This document shows, piece after piece, positions 2,163-10,147 of a stretch of DNA of 64,000 nucleotides. Numbering within the stretch: the first letter of the stretch is position 1; every line of letters begins with the position of its first letter. The position numbers and the translations under genes were made by a program. The DNA is from a virus. The stretch is taken from the IMG/VR virus record IMGVR_UViG_3300009183_000050, positions 32,001 through 96,000 of that record. One strand, 5' to 3'. The notes beneath the pieces are model-generated. The model was not told the DNA's origin, did not search any database, and saw nothing but the letters and a program-made list of their open reading frames with translations.

Positions 2163-3494
2163 ATGCCGTCCATCTTTACTGAAAATCTTCGTGTCTATAA
2201 TGCTGAACAGTTCAAACAGTCAATCTCTGATGTGGGACCGACTAATATCTATTTGACATTTGGTAGAACTAGACCTTGGGATAATGAGAGTGTTCCACCT
2301 CAGGCCAACTCATCTGTTGAAGGGTTCAATGATGTATGGAGAAACATGATCGGTGCAAAACTGGTCACAGGTAATGATGTTCGCCATGCTATTCCTAGAC
2401 GCGATTGGACCTCAGGTACAACTTATGCTATGTATGATAACGAAGAACAGGTTGGATATCTATTTTCTGATAATGTATCTTTTTTCGTTGTCACATCGGA
2501 TTGGAATGTATACAAGTGTCTGATGAATAACTATGGTAAACCATCGACGGTCATGCCAACTCAGACCATTCTGAACTCACCTGTTAAAGAATCTGATGGT
2601 TATATTTGGAAGTATATGTATACTGTTGCGGCTGAAGAAAGACTTAGATTTACAACCAGTGCATATATTCCTGTTAGAACACTGGTCAATAATAACAACT
2701 CGATGCAGTGGAGAGTCCAACAAGCCGCAAGAGAAGGCACTATTGATGTTGTAGAGGTGATCAGCGGTGGTTCTGGTTACATGAATGCTAATACGATCAT
2801 TGTCACTATTACTGGTGATGGTCTCGGCGCTCAAGCATTTGCTAGTATCAATACTATATCAAATACAGTTAATACTGTTACAATCACAAATCCAGGTACC
2901 AATTATACATATGGTTTCGTTGATATTGTTGATTCAGGAACAGGAGCTAATGCTATTGCTAAACCTCGCATTCCTCCTCCAGGTGGTCATGGTAGTGACC
3001 CTATGAGAGAATTAGGTGGTTCATATATCATTATCAATCCGAGAATCATTAGAACTGAAGATGGTCAGTTACCTGTCACGAACGAGTTCAGACAGATTTC
3101 TATCTTGCAAGACCCTCATGAAAGAGTTGCAGATAACGTAGCTAATTCTCTAGTCTATACACAGACAACTAGAATGATCCTAAGTACCGGTTCAGTGGAC
3201 TATTACCATGATGAAACGGTCTATCAAGGTTCATCTCTAGCTGAAGCATTATTTACAGGTATCGTATGTGCATGGGATGCTCCAAATAATTTCATTCAAT
3301 TAACAAATACAACAGGAACTCCGGCAGCGGACGTTCTTGTTGGTGCTAATAGTGCGGCAGCCCGATTCGTCGAATCTATTACAGATAAAGAACTAAAAGA
3401 CTACTCAGGTCATCTACTATATACCGATAATATCAGTCCTATCACTCGTGCAAACGATCAGACCGAGGACTTTAAGATCGTATTGAAATTCTAA
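2163..3494 (+). CDS. gp8: Baseplate wedge subunit gp8
   Basis: Motifs 'IPRRDWTSGTTYAMY', 'VYKCLMN', 'DGYIWKYMY', 'GGHGSDPMRELG' and C-terminal 'ITRANDQTEDFKIVLKF'. Confidence 0.9.
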   Translation: MPSIFTENLRVYNAEQFKQSISDVGPTNIYLTFGRTRPWDNESVPPQANSSVEGFNDVWRNMIGAKLVTGNDVRHAIPRRDWTSGTTYAMYDNEEQVGYLFSDNVSFFVVTSDWNVYKCLMNNYGKPSTVMPTQTILNSPVKESDGYIWKYMYTVAAEERLRFTTSAYIPVRTLVNNNNSMQWRVQQAAREGTIDVVEVISGGSGYMNANTIIVTITGDGLGAQAFASINTISNTVNTVTITNPGTNYTYGFVDIVDSGTGANAIAKPRIPPPGGHGSDPMRELGGSYIIINPRIIRTEDGQLPVTNEFRQISILQDPHERVADNVANSLVYTQTTRMILSTGSVDYYHDETVYQGSSLAEALFTGIVCAWDAPNNFIQLTNTTGTPAADVLVGANSAAARFVESITDKELKDYSGHLLYTDNISPITRANDQTEDFKIVLKF

Positions 3495-3511: not shown

Positions 3512-6500
3512 ATGGTTGATCCAGTATTAACAGCCGCACAGAACGCCTCTGGGAACACTACGAATCTAGGAAACACGGGGTTAACGACTAACTTTAACGT
3601 CACACCCTATTATGATGATTATGATCCCAATGATCAGTATTATAGAATCTTGTATAAACCAGGATTTGCAGTGCAGGCTCGTGAACTCACTCAGATGCAA
3701 TCAATGTTGCAGAGCCAAATCTATAGAATGGGTCGGCATGTATTCAAAGATGGTACTATTGTTCTTCCAGGTGGTTTTCGCGTTCGCACCAATGCTGGTG
3801 AGAAAAAAGGTGAACCCATCGACTATGTTAAGATTAAGACAACGAATGCTTCAAACGTTTCTGTGAATGTTAATGATCTTGTTGGTTCAACGCTTACTGG
3901 TGCAACCAGCAATATTAAAGCCTATGTTATTGATGTGGCCGATAGCGATGGTACAACACAAAATACAAAGACAGTCTACGTCAGCTATATGAGTGCGTCA
4001 TCCGTTGATTCAAATGTTCGCACATTTCTTGCTGGAGAAACTCTAACAAGTGCAAATAATGGTGGTGCTATTGTTCTCGATAGTGATCCTGTAGCCAACA
4101 CAGGATATGCTGGTTGGTTCCAGATTCAAGAAGGTGTTTACTTTGCTAAAGAACATTTCATCTATTTCCCAACTCAGTCGGTGGTTCTTGACCGCTACAA
4201 TCCTAATCCAACCTGTAAGGTTGGCTTCATTGTATCAGAAGAAATTGTCAACTATAACCAAGATTCAAATCTTCTTGACCCCGCTCTTGAAGCATCTAAC
4301 TATTCTGCCCCAGGTGCTGACCGATTTAAACTTGCATCAACACTTAGCGTTCTAAGTATTGATGATGCAGCCGGTCTACCAGATTTCGTGACATTGTTTA
4401 CCATTAAAGATGGTATTATGCAAATATCTCGTGAAAAGACTGATTATAACATACTTGGTGATGCTATTGCTGAAAGAACCTATAATGAGTCAGGCGATTA
4501 TGTTGTTCGCGGACTTAACGTTCAGGTTCAAGAGCATGATCGTGTAGAATCTCCTGTCAATAACCAAGGGAGATATGCTAACGGTAACAATCAACTTCTT
4601 ATTGTTAACGTAGATCCGGGTATTGGCTATGTTAAAGGTTATCAGATCAGCAACCAAGACATTGTTTCTATCGAAGTTGAAAAACCTACAGAATATAACA
4701 ATGTCGCATCTCAGATCACATCAACTTCGATGGGTCAATATCTAAGAGTTAATGAAGCTGTCGGTTCATGGCAACTCGATCAAGGTGCTAGAGTTAACTT
4801 TTATGATGTGGTTCAGAAAAGAATCACTAATAATGATGTGACAACAGGTCAAAAATGGTCAGTTGGTGCCCAGACTGGTAACCTTATCGGTTCCGCTGTC
4901 GTTAACTCTGTCCAGTATACGGGTTCAGGCACCCTTGGCTATGACGCTCAATATGATATCTTCTTATCAGATATCAAGATGATCGGCGCTAATAGCACAG
5001 CAAACATTCGAAGCCTGTATTATGATAACACTCCACACTCAGATGTTGGTGCTGACGTTGTTGGTGCAAGTAATTCAACATCAAATACTACGCTCAGAGG
5101 TCTTGATCAAGCAGCATTACTTTATTATGTAGGATCAAACTCTGTAAAAACTGCTAGAGATATTAATGGTAATCCTACTACAATCTATAACTTCAATAGA
5201 ACTGACGGTATTGCGGCGGCTCTGACATTCAGCACAAGCGGTACAACAACTATCACTCTTTCGGGCAACACAACTTCCCAGATTCCATATGGAACTGTAG
5301 CGTCATTGTCACAGGCCGATAAGACACAAGATTTCTTAGTGACACTGAATCAGACCTTTAATATTGGACCTCTCTGGTCAGCAACTATAACATCAAACGG
5401 TACAAGATATCTAACTAGTGCTAATGCTAACTTCACTAGAATGAATGTCGGTGATAAGATCGAACTTGCAGGAAACCCAAATACATGGTATATCTCAGCT
5501 ATCTCTGATGATAATCATATCATGGTATCAAACACAGTTCCTTCATATGCTTCAGGCAATCTTGCTTTCAAAGCCTACAAGACCGGCGACATTATCAATA
5601 TGTCAGGTAAAGGTGTGCTTGTTGGTACTGAAAGAAATATTGCCGCAACACCGACTAGCCTCGCATTTGATCTGAAAGAAACTTTCCCATCAACTGTAGC
5701 GGCCACAATCACATATCAGATTGCATCAAAACAGTCTACAGAAGTTGCTAAAATCTTGAAACCAAACCGCTTCGTCAAGATTAACTGCTCAACGGCAGGT
5801 ACATCTGGACCATTCTCTCTTGGTTTTGCTGATGTGTATCGGATTCGTAATGTTATTAAGAAAACTGGTTCAGCACCGAGTTCACTATCTGATGGTACAA
5901 ACGTAACTAGATACTTCACTCTCGACAATGGTCAGAAAGATACTTTCTATGATATTGCCAAGCTGAAGAAATTTAATGGCTACACTCTCGGCGCCACAGA
6001 CTTCTTGCTAATCGAACTCGATTACTTCGAACCAAGTTTCTCAGGTCGTGCAGGTTTCTTCACTGTAGATTCATATCCAATTCAGGATAATGATGCTAAT
6101 AGTTCAAATTCAACTATCAGAACCGAAAATATTCCACTATACATCTCACCAACTACTGGTCAGAAGTATGACTTGCGTAATAACATCGACTTCAGACCTA
6201 TTAAGGCTGCAACTGCTACCGATACAACTGTTGTCGCTTCTGCTACAATCAATCCATCATCTAACTCATCTACATATAGCTTCGGCGCAAGTGGTCTAAA
6301 ATTCCCTGTGCCTTCAACCGAAGTTATCTATGATTACTCATACTATCTCGGTAGAAAAGATGTTGTTATAGGCACAAAAAATAATAGATTTGCTGTTGTT
6401 AAAGGTGCATCATCAGCGACTCCATTGATTCCAGAAACATCCGATAACAATATGATTCTTGCGGTTATCAATGTTCCTCCATATCCAACTGTATCACCAA

Positions 6501-9500
6501 CATATGGTAATAATCTTGGTAGAAGAGACCTTGCCTGTTCTGTTCAGAAGGCCTCAAATCGTAGATATACCATGCGTGATATTGGTGTTCTAGAAAATAG
6601 AATCAAAAACCTTGAGTATTATACAGGGTTAACGATGCTTGAAAAAGATGCATTGAATCTGAAGATCACTGACGATGCGGGTAATGATCGTTTCAAAAAC
6701 GGTATCTTCTTAGACACATTTAAGGACACCTCGCTCTCTGCTAAAGGTGCGAATCCAGATTTTAGAATTGTTGTTGATCCTAATGAATTGAGCCTTGTGC
6801 CTCTATATGTTCAAGAATCATGGAAGCACGAATATCTTTCAGGCTCTACAACTGGTACGGCTGTTGCTGTTAATAATAATATCATAACCTTTGCATATAC
6901 AGAAACTTCACAGTTCGTGCAACCAAAAGTTACTGATCATAGATTGCTTGAAAGAGGTACGTTCCTTTATAGAGGAGCATTAAATATTCTTCCAAATCAA
7001 GATATGTGGATTGATACGACTTATGCTCCTGATGAAATAGTTAAAATTGAAGCAAATAACTCCGGACTAAGTATCAGTGTAGGCAATTCAGCAAACGGCT
7101 GGACTGATGATAAAGACGCACAGGTCACTAAGAGTCTTCTGAATACCGACTGGGAATCTTGGAAACAACACATTACTGGTTATAAGCTCTATAAAGGTGA
7201 AGGCGCTTCTAAGGTTCTTTATGGAACGTATGCAAATGAAGAAGAGGCTAGGGACGCTGCCGCTACTTGGACAACAAAACAAAATCAAGGTTCGGCCACA
7301 CTCGAAACACTTTATTATAATGATAGAATTGGCACAAGCTACTACGCCAACTATAGCACAGATGATGCCGCCGGCTCATATAAGATGATCTCAAGCACGA
7401 AGATTCCATATATTAGACCTCAGACACTCTATGTTATAGGTGTAGGTCTGAAACCTTATAGTAAAGTCAAAGTATTCTTTGATGGCGTTAGCGTATCTGC
7501 TTATTGCAGGCCTTTGACCTACAAACAATTCGCGGTGCTTGCGGCCGGTTATTCGCCTATTGTAGGTGAATATTATGGAAGTCTTGGTGATCCGCTAATT
7601 GTTGATGATATTGGAAGAACTTTCTTTGAGTTCCATCTCACACAGGATGGTCCTCGTTTTAGAACTGGCGAAAGACGACTGTATGTTCTCGATGGTGATC
7701 AGATTGATCCTCAGCAAATCTCAGCCGAACTCGATGCATCTACAACCGCATCCGGTATCTTCGTTGCTGATGGTACTGCTCAGACATTACAGAGAACAGT
7801 CTATTCAACGTCAGGTTATGAAAGAACATATGGACCTGCATATGACAGGGCAAAAGAAGAATCTTCATATGCGGTTATGCCTAATACATGGACACCACCA
7901 CCCAAGCATGGTCACTGTTGCTTCAATCCAGAAGCTAAGGTTCTCATGGCTGACAAGACATGGAAAGCTATCCAAGATATTGTAGAAGGTGAAAAAGTTC
8001 TTGGTGATAATGGTCAGGTCAATACTGTTCAGAAGGTTAATGCACCTCGTATCGAAGATAGAAAACTGATCAAATTTGAAGGTATTGATGGTACCACATT
8101 CTTCTCAACCGATGATCACTTGTTTATGACCGACAAAGGTTGGAAAACATGGGATATTGAGGCTGTTAAGAAGTCTTATGATGATGGATTCAAGATCGAT
8201 TATGTGTTCTTGGAAAATGACAACAAGACATGCAGCATCGACCATAATGACAAACTGAAAGTTATTAAACCTGAAACTCTATCTTATGACTTCGTTCCTT
8301 ATGAAGGTGAGATAGGTATGCATGGTTATACCTCAGAAGATTTGGTCTATGACTTGACTCTTGACGGTAATATGACCTATATCGTTGAAGGTTATGTCGT
8401 TCATAACTGTTGCGTAGCATATGTTGTGTTCATCAAAGCACCTGATGAAGAAGAAGGTATATTCGTAACAAGTATGGATGTATTCATACATTCCAAATCT
8501 ACAACAAGAGGCCTATGGTTTGAAATCAGGGAAGTTGATAAGGGTGGAGGTATTACACCTACAACAATTCCAGGAAGTTCGGTACACTATGAGAATGCAG
8601 ATATCGTCGTTTCACCAAACGGTAAAGATAGCCCAATGCATGTTGTGTTCCCAAGACCAGTATTCTTGTTCAAGGACACCAACTATGCATTTATCGTCCA
8701 TTCCGATAGCCCAAGCCCGCTTGACGTTGATCCTGACACTTCAATCTGGATCTCTAGACTTGGTGAGACTGATATTAACACTGGTCAGAAGGTATCTGAT
8801 AGGCAAGCTACAGGTACATTCTATCAGACACTCAATAACCGCTCATGGGATCTAATTGATGGTCTAGACTTGACCTGCAACATCTATAGAGCCGTGTTCC
8901 CGAAAGATACTACAGCCAACTTCATCATTGGTAATGAACCAGTCGAAAAGTTCTTCATGGCCAATGCTTCTACTTCACTGAGTGGTAAAGTTGGTAGCTG
9001 GTTTACAACAGGTGATACTCTGACTGTAACTGGTGCTAACGGAACTATCGCTCTAACAGATAGAGTTCAAGGCAATACCTCAGTAGCTAATGCTAACGGT
9101 AATGTCGTAAATGTTATTAGTGCGACACAGTTTGCTGTATCTAAAACAAGATATCAGATTGGTGAGAAAGTAAACATCTACTATTCATCAAATAGCACAT
9201 ACAAGTGTTCTGCTACTGTTACAGCCATCTCAAACAGTTCAGCTAAGTTGTCTTACTATAATGAATCGGCCTCTAGTATCTACGGTGAGTTTAAAAATTC
9301 TACTGGCGGATTCAAAGTAGGTTCTGTGATTAGTGATATGATAGAAGGTACTACATATAGTGCCCAAGTAACTACTATTGATGATTATGCATATGGCGCC
9401 TTCAGTTATGAGCCAACTGTTCTCGACTTTGTTAAGACAAATATAAAATATGAAATGAGAACATATGCTAACGGTTCAACCTCAGTAGGCAGCTATAATT

Positions 9501-10147
9501 ATATCAGCCCTTCTGATACAACATATCTCTCTGATGAAAGGTCACTCTATAGCAGAACAAATGAATTGATCAATATTGGTGGTAACAAGTCAAACCAAAT
9601 CAGAGTGACTCTTATCACAAACTCTGAATATGTTTCACCCGTATATGACCTAGATACTTCACATACAATTTTCTTAGATAGTCAGATTAACTCAGACTAC
9701 TCAGGTGAAGATGGAAAATCTGGTGGTAATGCCATCAATAAATACATCTCACAGATTGTAACTCTTGCTGATGGTCAAGATGCGGAAGACCTGAAGGTCT
9801 ATCTGACAGCATATAGACCACCAAATACAGATGTTAAGGTCTATGTCAAGTTGCTTCATGCAAGTGATACCGATCCTTTCGACCAGAAATACTGGATTGA
9901 AATGACCAAAAATGGTACTGGCGAGTCATTATATTCATCTATCTCCGATAGAAATAACTTCAGAGAGTTTGTATATAACTTACCAACCTCAGTAATGGTC
10001 GGACCTGATGGGCAATCTCAATATACTAGCAATGGTATAGCGTTTAACGGCTACAAACAGTTCGCTGTTAAAGTTGTATTGCTTGGCGACAACTCAGCCG
10101 TCTATCCAAGAGTTGCTGATTTGAGATGTATCGCGGTACAGATGTAA
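3512..10147 (+). CDS. Large virion structural protein, VrlC/DUF4815-like, containing an internal Hint domain
   Basis: Motifs 'NFNVTPYYDDYD..YYRILYKPGFAVQARELTQMQS', 'APGADRFKL', 'RRYTMRDIGVLENRIKNLEYYT', 'RFKNGIFLDTF' and C-terminal 'FAVKVVL..YPRVADLRCIA'. Follows gp8. Confidence 0.85.
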   Translation: MVDPVLTAAQNASGNTTNLGNTGLTTNFNVTPYYDDYDPNDQYYRILYKPGFAVQARELTQMQSMLQSQIYRMGRHVFKDGTIVLPGGFRVRTNAGEKKGEPIDYVKIKTTNASNVSVNVNDLVGSTLTGATSNIKAYVIDVADSDGTTQNTKTVYVSYMSASSVDSNVRTFLAGETLTSANNGGAIVLDSDPVANTGYAGWFQIQEGVYFAKEHFIYFPTQSVVLDRYNPNPTCKVGFIVSEEIVNYNQDSNLLDPALEASNYSAPGADRFKLASTLSVLSIDDAAGLPDFVTLFTIKDGIMQISREKTDYNILGDAIAERTYNESGDYVVRGLNVQVQEHDRVESPVNNQGRYANGNNQLLIVNVDPGIGYVKGYQISNQDIVSIEVEKPTEYNNVASQITSTSMGQYLRVNEAVGSWQLDQGARVNFYDVVQKRITNNDVTTGQKWSVGAQTGNLIGSAVVNSVQYTGSGTLGYDAQYDIFLSDIKMIGANSTANIRSLYYDNTPHSDVGADVVGASNSTSNTTLRGLDQAALLYYVGSNSVKTARDINGNPTTIYNFNRTDGIAAALTFSTSGTTTITLSGNTTSQIPYGTVASLSQADKTQDFLVTLNQTFNIGPLWSATITSNGTRYLTSANANFTRMNVGDKIELAGNPNTWYISAISDDNHIMVSNTVPSYASGNLAFKAYKTGDIINMSGKGVLVGTERNIAATPTSLAFDLKETFPSTVAATITYQIASKQSTEVAKILKPNRFVKINCSTAGTSGPFSLGFADVYRIRNVIKKTGSAPSSLSDGTNVTRYFTLDNGQKDTFYDIAKLKKFNGYTLGATDFLLIELDYFEPSFSGRAGFFTVDSYPIQDNDANSSNSTIRTENIPLYISPTTGQKYDLRNNIDFRPIKAATATDTTVVASATINPSSNSSTYSFGASGLKFPVPSTEVIYDYSYYLGRKDVVIGTKNNRFAVVKGASSATPLIPETSDNNMILAVINVPPYPTVSPTYGNNLGRRDLACSVQKASNRRYTMRDIGVLENRIKNLEYYTGLTMLEKDALNLKITDDAGNDRFKNGIFLDTFKDTSLSAKGANPDFRIVVDPNELSLVPLYVQESWKHEYLSGSTTGTAVAVNNNIITFAYTETSQFVQPKVTDHRLLERGTFLYRGALNILPNQDMWIDTTYAPDEIVKIEANNSGLSISVGNSANGWTDDKDAQVTKSLLNTDWESWKQHITGYKLYKGEGASKVLYGTYANEEEARDAAATWTTKQNQGSATLETLYYNDRIGTSYYANYSTDDAAGSYKMISSTKIPYIRPQTLYVIGVGLKPYSKVKVFFDGVSVSAYCRPLTYKQFAVLAAGYSPIVGEYYGSLGDPLIVDDIGRTFFEFHLTQDGPRFRTGERRLYVLDGDQIDPQQISAELDASTTASGIFVADGTAQTLQRTVYSTSGYERTYGPAYDRAKEESSYAVMPNTWTPPPKHGHCCFNPEAKVLMADKTWKAIQDIVEGEKVLGDNGQVNTVQKVNAPRIEDRKLIKFEGIDGTTFFSTDDHLFMTDKGWKTWDIEAVKKSYDDGFKIDYVFLENDNKTCSIDHNDKLKVIKPETLSYDFVPYEGEIGMHGYTSEDLVYDLTLDGNMTYIVEGYVVHNCCVAYVVFIKAPDEEEGIFVTSMDVFIHSKSTTRGLWFEIREVDKGGGITPTTIPGSSVHYENADIVVSPNGKDSPMHVVFPRPVFLFKDTNYAFIVHSDSPSPLDVDPDTSIWISRLGETDINTGQKVSDRQATGTFYQTLNNRSWDLIDGLDLTCNIYRAVFPKDTTANFIIGNEPVEKFFMANASTSLSGKVGSWFTTGDTLTVTGANGTIALTDRVQGNTSVANANGNVVNVISATQFAVSKTRYQIGEKVNIYYSSNSTYKCSATVTAISNSSAKLSYYNESASSIYGEFKNSTGGFKVGSVISDMIEGTTYSAQVTTIDDYAYGAFSYEPTVLDFVKTNIKYEMRTYANGSTSVGSYNYISPSDTTYLSDERSLYSRTNELINIGGNKSNQIRVTLITNSEYVSPVYDLDTSHTIFLDSQINSDYSGEDGKSGGNAINKYISQIVTLADGQDAEDLKVYLTAYRPPNTDVKVYVKLLHASDTDPFDQKYWIEMTKNGTGESLYSSISDRNNFREFVYNLPTSVMVGPDGQSQYTSNGIAFNGYKQFAVKVVLLGDNSAVYPRVADLRCIAVQM
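7919..8407 (+). mobile_element. Mini-intein / Hint domain (163 aa, no endonuclease) in frame within the VrlC-like protein
   Basis: Block A 'CFNPEAKVLMAD', block B 'FSTDDHLFMT' (TxxH), blocks F/G 'VYDLTLDGNMTYIVEGYVVHN' followed by Cys(+1). Confidence 0.9.

What the first reader, a model, noticed from the sequence alone, without database searches (positions are those of the whole stretch)
7900..8480. Complete mini-intein/Hint domain inside a giant baseplate (VrlC-like) structural protein
Seen: a 163-aa insert with Cys1, TxxH, terminal His-Asn and Cys+1, with no endonuclease, lying mid-protein after a Pro-rich linker. Established: phage inteins mostly sit in conserved nucleotide-handling enzymes such as polymerases, helicases, terminases and RNR, so one in a virion scaffold is atypical. 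Recalled but unverified: VrlC-like proteins usually carry 'DPLAQ(T/S)F' just before the 'G.F.TS.D.F' motif, and here that position is taken by Hint plus 'CCVAYVVF'. Inference: the Hint may be a domesticated autoprocessing switch, possibly replacing a labile Asp-Pro site, that cleaves or splices the protein during baseplate maturation. Splicing would give H-G-H-C-C-C, a Cys/His cluster that could bind metal or form disulfides.
Basis: partly seen in the sequence, partly recalled or inferred. Interest (0 to 1): 0.85.

Follow-up and report, generated by a model that had tools for sequence, protein, structure and literature searches.

The report
Self-excising Hint domain in phage baseplate protein
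A freshwater T4-like phage carries a complete, endonuclease-free intein-type domain in the linker of its giant VrlC baseplate protein, and related domains sit at this same domain boundary in several other VrlC lineages, so the site tolerates or uses self-processing.

Summary
Residues C1470-N1632 (window 7919-8407) of the 2211-aa DUF4815/VrlC protein form a 163-aa Hint domain. It has Cys1, T-D-D-H, a block-F Asp, terminal His-Asn and Cys+1, and no endonuclease. The fold model is confident (pLDDT 92.6) and matches BIL and intein structures.

The domain is not a one-off. All 61 closest homologue clusters carry it at the same site with the catalytic residues invariant. It diverges about as fast as its flanks and has low dN/dS.

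'CCVAYVVF' is the diverged counterpart of 'DPLAQSF', not a replacement for it. Hint-less relatives have 'SCMAYSF', and several VrlC proteins carry both a Hint and DPLAQSF.

The wider idea stays open. Over 100 protein clusters encode a separate C-half that starts at this motif ('MKPIAQTF'). In the five loci examined, that gene directly follows a VrlC N-half gene. Two of those N-halves end in 2-3 tandem Hints. Other VrlC lineages have Hints here followed by Lys or Arg, which cannot splice canonically.

The Hint belongs to a large metagenome-only family (1010 representatives at E<=1e-10), often tandem or C-terminal, also found in other virion proteins.

Best reading: canonical splicing at a boundary where chain continuity is dispensable. 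Programmed cleavage is the main rival. This scan noted a related Hint in a split VrlC of another genome (e1-5881377).

The parts
2163..3494 (+). T4 gp8-like baseplate wedge gene directly upstream of the host gene
   Evidence: Pfam Phage-Gp8 scores 77.9 bits against a cut-off of 25. The same gp25-gp6-gp7-gp8-DUF4815 order is seen in related contigs.
3512..10147 (+). Host gene: 2211-aa VrlC-like / DUF4815 baseplate protein precursor
   Evidence: Pfam DUF4815 scores 159.6 bits against a cut-off of 30. phrog_358 scores 1015 bits. The N part matches the phi812 baseplate DUF4815 protein 9euf at E 4e-20, and a C-part profile matches the same chain at E 7.5e-22.
3512..7918 (+). N-extein (residues 1-1469)
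   Evidence: Aligns with homologues up to the Hint.
7880..7918 (+). Pro-rich linker 'PNTWTPPPKHGHC' ending in the -1 Cys
   Evidence: Read directly from the sequence. The pattern 'NTW.PPPPK.HC' is conserved only in the Hint-bearing clade. The -1 residue is Cys in 57 and Ser in 5 of 62 sequences.
7919..8407 (+). Hint domain / class-1 mini-intein, 163 aa (C1470-N1632)
7919..7957 (+). Block A 'CFNPEAKVLMADK' with the Cys1 nucleophile
   Evidence: C1, F2 and M10 are invariant in the 16-sequence alignment A2. Cys1 is present in 62 of 62 clade members.
8108..8119 (+). Block B T-D-D-H (T1533, H1536)
   Evidence: T64, D65, D66 and H67 are invariant in A2.
8345..8407 (+). Blocks F and G 'VYDLTLDGNMTYIVEGYVVHN', with the block-F Asp (8351-8353) and terminal His-Asn (8402-8407)
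   Evidence: D145, L146, G150, Y154, H162 and N163 are invariant. NCBIfam intein_Cterm passes its cut-off.
8408..8431 (+). Cys+1 and the motif 'CCVAYVVF', counterpart of 'SCMAYSF' and 'DPLAQSF' and first element of the C-terminal module
   Evidence: Junction alignment across 99 homologues. 'CC' is present in 62 of 62 clade members.
8456..8485 (+). Second conserved motif 'GIFVTSMDVF' (the G.F.TS.D.F motif)
   Evidence: Conserved in all three groups of homologues.
8408..10144 (+). C-extein (residues 1633-2211). The separately encoded C-half proteins begin at the equivalent of its first motif and align over its first ~400 residues.
   Evidence: Alignment A3 covers the first 400 residues, with 19-22% identity between the window and the split C-halves.

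Best explanation
This is a catalytically intact, endonuclease-free, class-1 intein-type Hint domain. It sits in the flexible linker just upstream of the motif that begins the C-terminal module of the VrlC baseplate protein. The most likely course is canonical cis-splicing in the host cytoplasm. First, an N-S acyl shift occurs at C1470, helped by T1533 and H1536. Second, the N-extein is transferred to C1633. Third, N1632 cyclises, helped by H1631. Fourth, an S-N shift gives a continuous 2048-aa protein with the junction ...KHGHC-CCVAY.... The domain was acquired once at the base of this phage clade and has been inherited vertically since. It belongs to a large, undescribed, mostly phage-borne Hint family. 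That family resembles inteins in its chemistry and bacterial intein-like (BIL) domains in its context: low-complexity linkers, tandem arrays and C-terminal positions. Hints recur at this one boundary because chain continuity is dispensable there, so either splicing or cleavage leaves a working protein. Shown here: the anatomy, fold, conservation, phylogenetic pattern and the alternative architectures in relatives. Inferred: that splicing is the dominant reaction, and that retention needs no extra function.
For: All residues needed for class-1 splicing are present and invariant: 62 of 62 sequences have Cys1, His-Asn and Cys-Cys at +1/+2, and T-D-D-H and the block-F Asp are invariant in alignment A2. 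The fold model is confident and its nearest structures are BIL domains and inteins. The position equivalent to +1 varies across the family (D, S or K) but is always Cys where this Hint subtype is present, as the splicing chemistry requires. Continuous Hint-less homologues exist (P0063-P0099), so a ligated product is a normal form of the protein. Evidence for single gain and vertical descent: the clade-A Hints form one group on the Hint tree. The host C-part tree has a 100%-supported clade of 61 Hint-bearing sequences plus one Hint-less sequence. Hint and extein distances correlate (Mantel r 0.65 and 0.59, p 0.001), with similar mean divergence of 0.42 against 0.43-0.46. GC content is within the range of the gene. 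dN/dS of the Hint is 0.05-0.10, no higher than the flanks. Evidence for a permissive boundary: more than 100 clusters of separately encoded C-halves start 'M(x)KPIAQTF'. In three loci examined (L032-L034) the N-half simply ends in a Gly-rich tail.
Against: No experiment shows splicing. The family context resembles BIL domains, which are reported to cleave more than they splice (PMC7765530). 80% of 159 family domains in the best-scoring representatives have Lys at +1, and 28 end within 5 residues of the protein's C-terminus. Hints with Lys or Arg at +1 sit at this same VrlC boundary (P0176, P0140, P0127, P0227), so cleavage is evidently compatible with function here. An element without a homing endonuclease, lying in a variable linker, should be easy to lose. 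Yet it is kept in 61 clusters, with a clade-specific conserved N-flank and a conserved -1 Cys, which hints at selection for retention. The block-F His seen in some relatives ('G[DN]HTY') is not conserved in this clade.
Confidence: 0.55

Rival explanations
1. The Hint is a domesticated autoprocessing module. It is kept because it performs a programmed maturation step. Either it cleaves VrlC into an N chain and a C chain that begins at 'CCVAY', reproducing the two-gene arrangement of relatives. Or it splices conditionally, for example gated by redox state through the four-Cys cluster C-1/C1/C+1/C+2, and so times baseplate assembly.
For: The separately encoded C-half begins exactly at this motif in more than 100 clusters. 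In the five loci examined it follows a VrlC N-half gene. In L022 and L023 the N-half ends in 3 and 2 tandem Hints. Hints of other subtypes with Lys or Arg at +1, which cannot splice canonically, lie directly before DPLAQSF or CLAYSF in other VrlC lineages. Hint presence changes at least 6 times on the host tree. Hints from different VrlC lineages interleave with Hints of other hosts on the Hint tree. Within the clade the Hint is retained without an endonuclease in a variable linker, under dN/dS 0.05-0.10. The -1 Cys is conserved even across different host proteins.
Against: Many VrlC proteins, including the sister lineages P0064/P0065 and possibly the nested P0063, work without any Hint. Three of the five split N-halves examined have none. 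No Hint function is therefore required at this boundary. Cys+1 is invariant, and cleavage alone would not need it. Purifying selection is expected for any intein whose failure destroys its host protein. A permissive site also explains the recurrence without invoking function.
Confidence: 0.28
2. The Hint acts as a thioester-driven ligase. The thioester formed at C1469-C1470 is attacked in trans by a nucleophile of another baseplate or fibre protein. This would link VrlC covalently to a partner, as Hedgehog Hint domains attach cholesterol and as was proposed for the BIL-ubiquitin-like proteins whose BIL2 domain is the best structural match.
For: The top Foldseek hits are the BIL2 domain of the Tetrahymena BUBL1 locus (6tmm, 6y75). 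The family is frequent at extreme C-termini with 0-4 residues following, and in tandem arrays. It also occurs on collagen-like and SLT-bearing virion proteins.
Against: The structural similarity is at the level of the whole Hint superfamily: identity is 16% and inteins score almost equally. There is no adduct-recognition region. A complete set of splicing residues, including Cys+1, makes the intramolecular reaction the default. There is no evidence for any partner.
Confidence: 0.07
3. The Hint is an inactive remnant that stays in the mature protein as an extra structural domain of the baseplate.
For: It lies in a surface-type linker of a very large structural protein that carries many accessory domains. 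Pfam scores fall below the gathering cut-offs.
Against: Every catalytic residue is invariant across 62 sequences at roughly 42% mean pairwise difference, which is not the pattern of a decayed intein. NCBIfam intein_Cterm passes its cut-off.
Confidence: 0.05

Closest known systems
Class-1 mini-inteins (e.g. Mtu RecA, Ssp/Npu DnaB and gp41-1 splicing domains)
   Same: Cys1, block B TxxH, block-F Asp, penultimate His, terminal Asn and Cys+1. HINT fold (Foldseek probability 1.00, TM about 0.6-0.75). No endonuclease. Absent from homologous proteins that are otherwise collinear.
   Different: It lies in a Pro-rich variable linker of a virion structural protein rather than a conserved enzyme site. 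Its sequence family is dominated by domains without a +1 nucleophile, in tandem arrays and at C-termini. Sequence similarity to solved inteins is marginal (best E 0.069).
Type-A bacterial intein-like (BIL) domains (Amitai et al. 2003; Dassa et al. 2004, as summarised in PMC7765530)
   Same: Hint domain with C-terminal His-Asn. Located in variable regions of non-conserved, often surface or secreted proteins. The wider family mostly lacks a +1 nucleophile (Lys in 127 of 159 domains). The solved Clostridium thermocellum BIL (2lwy) is among the fold matches.
   Different: The window's domain and its closest subfamily always have Cys at +1, so canonical splicing is possible. The hosts are phage virion proteins. 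BIL type-specific sequence motifs could not be tested here.
BIL2 domain of the Tetrahymena BUBL1 (BIL-ubiquitin-like) locus, PDB 6tmm / 6y75
   Same: Best structural match (E 1.4e-7, TM 0.66-0.72). Both belong to multi-Hint architectures.
   Different: Only 16% identity. It is eukaryotic and flanks ubiquitin-like domains. No functional parallel has been shown.
Inteins in actinobacteriophage virion proteins (portal, minor capsid, tape measure, baseplate-wedge-like), bioRxiv 10.1101/2025.01.02.630785
   Same: Inteins in phage proteins without nucleotide-handling activity.
   Different: Most of those carry homing endonucleases and show sporadic, horizontally moving distributions. Here the Hint lacks an endonuclease, is fixed in a clade, and related Hints recur at one domain boundary that also exists as a gene split.
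VrlC / DUF4815 double-layer baseplate proteins (phage A511 and PhiM9/PhiM12 literature, PMC4621102; phi812 baseplate, PDB 9euf)
   Same: DUF4815 N-terminal domain, position after gp8 in the baseplate module, and the conserved DPLAQSF-type and G.F.TS.D.F motifs.
   Different: None of the described VrlC proteins is reported to carry a Hint. No record in 50,697 deposited phage genomes matches this Hint at E<=1e-3.

Membership tests
Class-1 intein | N-terminal nucleophile (Cys or Ser at position 1) | tested here: met
   C1470 is present, and Cys1 occurs in 62 of 62 homologues.
Class-1 intein | Block B TxxH | tested here: met
   T1533-D-D-H1536 is invariant in A2.
Class-1 intein | C-terminal His-Asn followed by a Cys, Ser or Thr at +1 | tested here: met
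   H1631-N1632|C1633 is present, in 62 of 62 homologues. TIGR01443 scores 22.3 bits against a cut-off of 15.6.
Class-1 intein | HINT fold | tested here: met
   AlphaFold2 pLDDT 92.6. Foldseek probability 1.00 to many inteins.
Class-1 intein | Insertion relative to intein-free homologues of the host protein | tested here: met
   P0063-P0099 lack it and are collinear across the site.
Class-1 intein | Curated N-terminal splicing-region and Pfam models reach their cut-offs | tested here: inconclusive
   TIGR01445 scores 23.8 against 24.5. Hom_end_hint scores 31.4 against 32.1. Intein_splicing scores 17.5 against 35.8.
Class-1 intein | Demonstrated protein splicing | not testable with these tools
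   This needs expression of the junction or virion mass spectrometry.
Type-A BIL domain | Hint motifs with conserved C-terminal His-Asn | tested here: met
Type-A BIL domain | No nucleophile at the C-flanking (+1) position | tested here: not met
   The window and all 61 relatives have Cys at +1. The wider family has Lys in 127 of 159 domains.
Type-A BIL domain | Located in variable regions of non-conserved proteins, often multicopy | tested here: met
   The N-flank is Pro- or Gly-rich and variable. Tandem arrays of 2-6 Hint stretches occur.
Type-A BIL domain | Type-specific sequence motifs of Amitai et al. 2003 | not testable with these tools
   No BIL-specific profile is available in the libraries used.
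Hedgehog-type (Hog) Hint | C-terminal position with a sterol or adduct-recognition region and no C-terminal Asn | tested here: not met
   The domain is internal and has His-Asn and Cys+1. A degenerate third Hint without His-Asn does occur in L022.
Split intein | N- and C-intein fragments on the two halves of a split host gene | tested here: not met
   The Hints at the ends of the L022 and L023 N-halves are complete. The C-half starts 'MTKPIAQTF' with no intein fragment.
VrlC / DUF4815 baseplate protein (host) | DUF4815 domain, baseplate-module synteny, homology to a solved baseplate protein | tested here: met
   DUF4815 scores 159.6 bits. gp8 lies upstream. gp25-gp6-gp7-gp8 synteny is seen in relatives. 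The phi812 baseplate protein 9euf matches.

The most novel reading that the evidence does not exclude
Hint domains are a recurrent, selected maturation device of double-layer phage baseplates. At the N-module/C-module boundary of VrlC they either cut the chain or use the thioester to ligate it, possibly gated by the Cys cluster. On this reading the continuous, Hint-bearing and split-gene forms are alternative ways of reaching the same assembled state. The same Hint family would act as a self-removing assembly or processing module on collagen-like fibres and SLT-bearing virion proteins.
Probability: 0.22. Interest if true: 0.85.

Novelty: new variant of a known kind. Interest (0 to 1): 0.6.

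Why it matters
Inteins are usually treated as selfish passengers of conserved enzymes, and clear cases of Hint domains doing useful work outside Hedgehog proteins are rare. Here a large, undescribed, metagenome-only Hint family sits in phage virion proteins. It recurs at one inter-module boundary of the VrlC baseplate protein in several subtypes: followed by Cys, Lys or Arg, single or tandem, fused or at the end of a split half. That gives a natural comparative series for asking whether self-processing is used in baseplate assembly. It also offers compact, endonuclease-free splicing or cleaving domains from mesophilic freshwater phages for protein engineering. If it proves to be only a tolerated passenger, it still marks a boundary in VrlC where the chain can be broken, which helps in reading baseplate structures.

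Tried and rejected
1. A MAFFT alignment of all 99 full-length proteins timed out. It was replaced by BLAST-anchored extraction of the junction.
2. phmmer of the Hint against PDB sequences gave only marginal hits (best E 0.069). The fold search was needed.
3. A single-sequence scan of IMG/VR found only N-terminal halves of unrelated inteins, including RNA-polymerase inteins of giant-virus contigs. These are not relatives of the host gene.
4. A search for shorter proteins matching the window's C-part returned only contig-end fragments and no genuine split forms among close relatives. Split forms were found only in a more distant clade.
5. An AlphaFold2 model of the precursor segment (N-flank, Hint and C-flank; 6-sequence alignment) had mean pLDDT 51.8, with the N-flank below 50. 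It says nothing reliable about the linker.
6. The test of whether Hint-less P0063 is nested in the Hint clade, which would mean a loss, is unresolved. The AU test does not reject Hint monophyly (p 0.456).
7. Compositional foreignness was rejected: Hint GC is 0.378 against 0.399 +/- 0.019 for windows of the ORF.
8. The split-intein reading of L022 and L023 was rejected because the Hints are complete and the C-half has no intein piece.
10. Literature searches for intein with DUF4815, and for VrlC, found no report of a Hint in VrlC.
11. tblastn of the Hint against 50,697 phage records gave no match.
Full report
**The object**

The window is part of a 140,865-bp viral record. ORF 3512..10147 (+) encodes a 2211-aa protein. 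It has a DUF4815 N-terminal domain (159.6 bits) and matches phrog_358. A T4 gp8 homologue lies directly upstream. Related contigs show the order gp25-gp6-gp7-gp8-DUF4815.

The N part matches the DUF4815 protein of the Staphylococcus phage phi812 baseplate, PDB 9euf, at E 4e-20. A profile of the C part matches residues 806-948 of the same chain at E 7.5e-22. The literature treats VrlC as a component of double-layer baseplates (PMC4621102, PMC7029224). 'Giant baseplate (VrlC-like) structural protein' is therefore correct.

**The insert**

Residues C1470-N1632 (7919-8407) form a 163-aa domain.
- It starts 'CFNPEAKVLMAD'.
- It has T-D-D-H at 1533-1536.
- It ends 'VYDLTLDGNMTYIVEGYVVHN' and is followed by C1633.
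- It is preceded by 'NTWTPPPKHGHC'.

Curated profiles are borderline, though NCBIfam intein_Cterm passes its cut-off. An AlphaFold2 model built on 16 relatives has mean pLDDT 92.6. Its best PDB matches are the BIL2 domain of Tetrahymena BUBL1 and the RecA, Prp8, gp41-1 and DnaB inteins, all at probability 1.00. There is no endonuclease.

**Distribution among close homologues**

A search with residues 1330-1800 returned 98 clusters.
- The 61 closest (41-97% identity over the query region, 2122-2651 aa apart from one 1252-aa fragment) all carry the Hint at the same place. It is 151-167 aa long. All have Cys1, His-Asn and 'CC' at +1/+2. The -1 residue is Cys in 57 and Ser in 5 of the 62 sequences, window included.
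- The next 23 clusters (P0063-P0085) lack the Hint and read 'SC[MS]AYSF' where the window reads 'CCVAYVVF'.
- The most distant 14 read 'DP[LI]AQ[ST]F' there.

'CCVAY..' is its diverged counterpart, and the Hint sits immediately N-terminal to it.

**History within the clade**
- On a tree of the C part, the Hint-bearing proteins plus one Hint-less long branch (P0063) form a 100%-supported clade. Hint-less P0064/P0065 are sister to it.
- Whether P0063 represents a loss is unresolved (AU p 0.456).
- The clade's Hints form one group on a Hint tree (support 76).
- Hint distances track extein distances (Mantel r 0.65 and 0.59), and mean divergence is similar.
- dN/dS of the Hint is 0.05-0.10, no higher than the flanks.
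- GC content is unremarkable.

This pattern fits one acquisition, vertical descent and maintained activity.

**Other forms of the same boundary in other lineages**
- L017 has the Hint followed by 'C-DKG-DPIAQSF'.
- P0140 has two tandem Hints followed by 'R-DPLAQSF'.
- P0127 has three Hints followed by 'R-DPVSQTF'.
- P0227 has 'KGS-DPIAQSF' after its Hint.
- P0176 has 'KKS-CLAYSF' after its Hint.

Hint and DPLAQ therefore co-occur, and the proposed mutual exclusivity is refuted. Several of these Hints have Lys or Arg at +1 and cannot splice by the canonical route.

In L022 and L023 the two parts are separate genes. The first gene is DUF4815-positive in L022. It ends in three (L022) or two (L023) tandem Hints. 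The next gene starts 'MTKPIAQTFYINEP.GG..GV.LT..D.YF'. More than 100 clusters of such separately encoded C-halves begin 'M(x)KPIAQTF'. In three further loci sampled from this set the N-half has no Hint and ends in a Gly-rich tail.

Hint presence needs at least 6 changes on the host tree. Hints from different VrlC lineages interleave with Hints from other hosts on the Hint tree (FastTree on 160 columns, moderate support).

**The wider family**

A profile of 16 Hints found 4491 representatives at E<=1e-3 and 1010 at E<=1e-10 among 1.84 billion proteins. Among the best-scoring representatives, excluding the VrlC clade itself, there are 159 complete domains:
- Cys1 is present in 159.
- His-Asn is present in 156.
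- The +1 residue is Lys in 127, Cys in 16 and Arg in 5.
- 26 of 125 proteins have two or more complete copies.
- 28 domains end within 5 residues of the C-terminus.

The window's nearest subfamily has Cys at both -1 and +1. Beyond VrlC it occurs in three other kinds of protein:
- a protein of about 1450 aa with an SLT transglycosylase domain (P0107, L018);
- a collagen-like protein (L021);
- a Gly-rich protein (P0111).

No deposited phage genome matches the Hint, and the window's own genome has only this one copy.

**Interpretation**

The chemistry is that of a class-1 intein. The context is that of bacterial intein-like domains, which occur in variable regions and are reported mainly to cleave (PMC7765530).

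Cys+1 is invariant here although the equivalent host position is otherwise D, S or K. Continuous Hint-less homologues are the common form. I therefore rate canonical splicing to a 2048-aa protein as the most likely reaction (0.55).

Both continuous and split forms of VrlC exist, so chain continuity at this boundary is dispensable. That alone can explain why Hints of several kinds, including non-splicing ones, are tolerated here repeatedly.

The main rival (0.28) is that the Hint is retained for programmed cleavage or conditional splicing. In its favour:
- long retention without an endonuclease in a deletable linker;
- a clade-specific conserved N-flank;
- a -1 Cys conserved across different hosts;
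- the repeated convergence on this site.

Trans-ligation through the thioester (0.07) and an inactive structural remnant (0.05) are less likely.

**Prior knowledge and novelty**

Inteins in phage portal, minor capsid, tape-measure and a baseplate-wedge-like protein are reported for actinobacteriophages (10.1101/2025.01.02.630785). A virion location is therefore unusual but not new. I found no report of a Hint in VrlC/DUF4815.

This scan had already noted, in another genome, a split VrlC whose second gene carries a Lys-followed Hint in its leader (e1-5881377). My data agree with that note and extend it. I class the finding as a new variant of a known kind.

**Caveats**
- The homologue search was seeded with a query that included the Hint. 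The flanks made up two thirds of the query and Hint-less relatives were recovered, so the bias is limited.
- The trees use short alignments.
- All relatives are metagenomic, and hosts are unknown.
- No processing experiment exists.

Noticed in passing
L022:1-4569 and L022:4582-6978 (contig Ga0007867_1000006, 163.8 kb); L023:1-3945 and L023:3981-5045: VrlC is split into two genes at the Hint site. The N-half ends in three (L022; the third is degenerate, ending 'YAVTGWPREDDFDYD' without His-Asn) or two (L023; then 'CCP' and stop) tandem Hints, joined by short Cys/Gly linkers. The C-half starts 'MTKPIAQTF'.
   Followed up: yes
L018:1045-5574, L020:1015-5478, P0107: A virion-type protein of about 1450-1500 aa carries the same Hint subtype in a Gly-rich linker ('GGGGC|CFNPDA ... 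HN|CGQANGG'). In P0107 an SLT lytic transglycosylase domain lies downstream at residues 877-975.
   Followed up: partly
L021:2461-3546 and L021:3534-4274 (same 163.8-kb contig as L022): A 362-aa collagen-repeat protein ends in this Hint followed by a poly-Gly tail. The overlapping next ORF begins with a weaker Hint match (E 1e-5).
   Followed up: partly
L025:395-1294: A 300-aa protein has a prokaryotic N-terminal methylation (type IV pilin-like) motif followed by a Hint of this family that ends 'LVHN|V'.
   Followed up: no
window 7919-8407 against its flanks; also the pairs L008/L014 and window/L007: Synonymous divergence is consistently lower in the Hint than in the flanks (for example dS 0.35 against 0.8-1.1, and 1.10 against about 2.0). 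This could mean occasional exchange of the Hint between related phages, or extra constraint on its codons.
   Followed up: no
L002, L003, L026, L029: Weak hits of the Hint profile are ordinary inteins inserted after a 'PFSDHNQ.PRN' motif in large ORFs of viral contigs, one of them a giant-virus MAG. I recognise this motif from memory as RNA-polymerase subunit 2 and did not test it. They are unrelated to the finding.
   Followed up: no
P0100, P0103, P0129, P0142, P0145 (metagenome proteins of 1757-4119 aa): Giant proteins carry 2-5 tandem Hints, each followed by 'K-G-G-x-S/C' linkers. Several continue with a repeated 'W.G..YA.GYE' module. Their function is unknown.
   Followed up: no
window 7599-7985 and 8478-8855 (+): Two ORFs of 128 and 125 aa lie in alternative frames inside the VrlC gene. 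They are most likely chance open frames.
   Followed up: no
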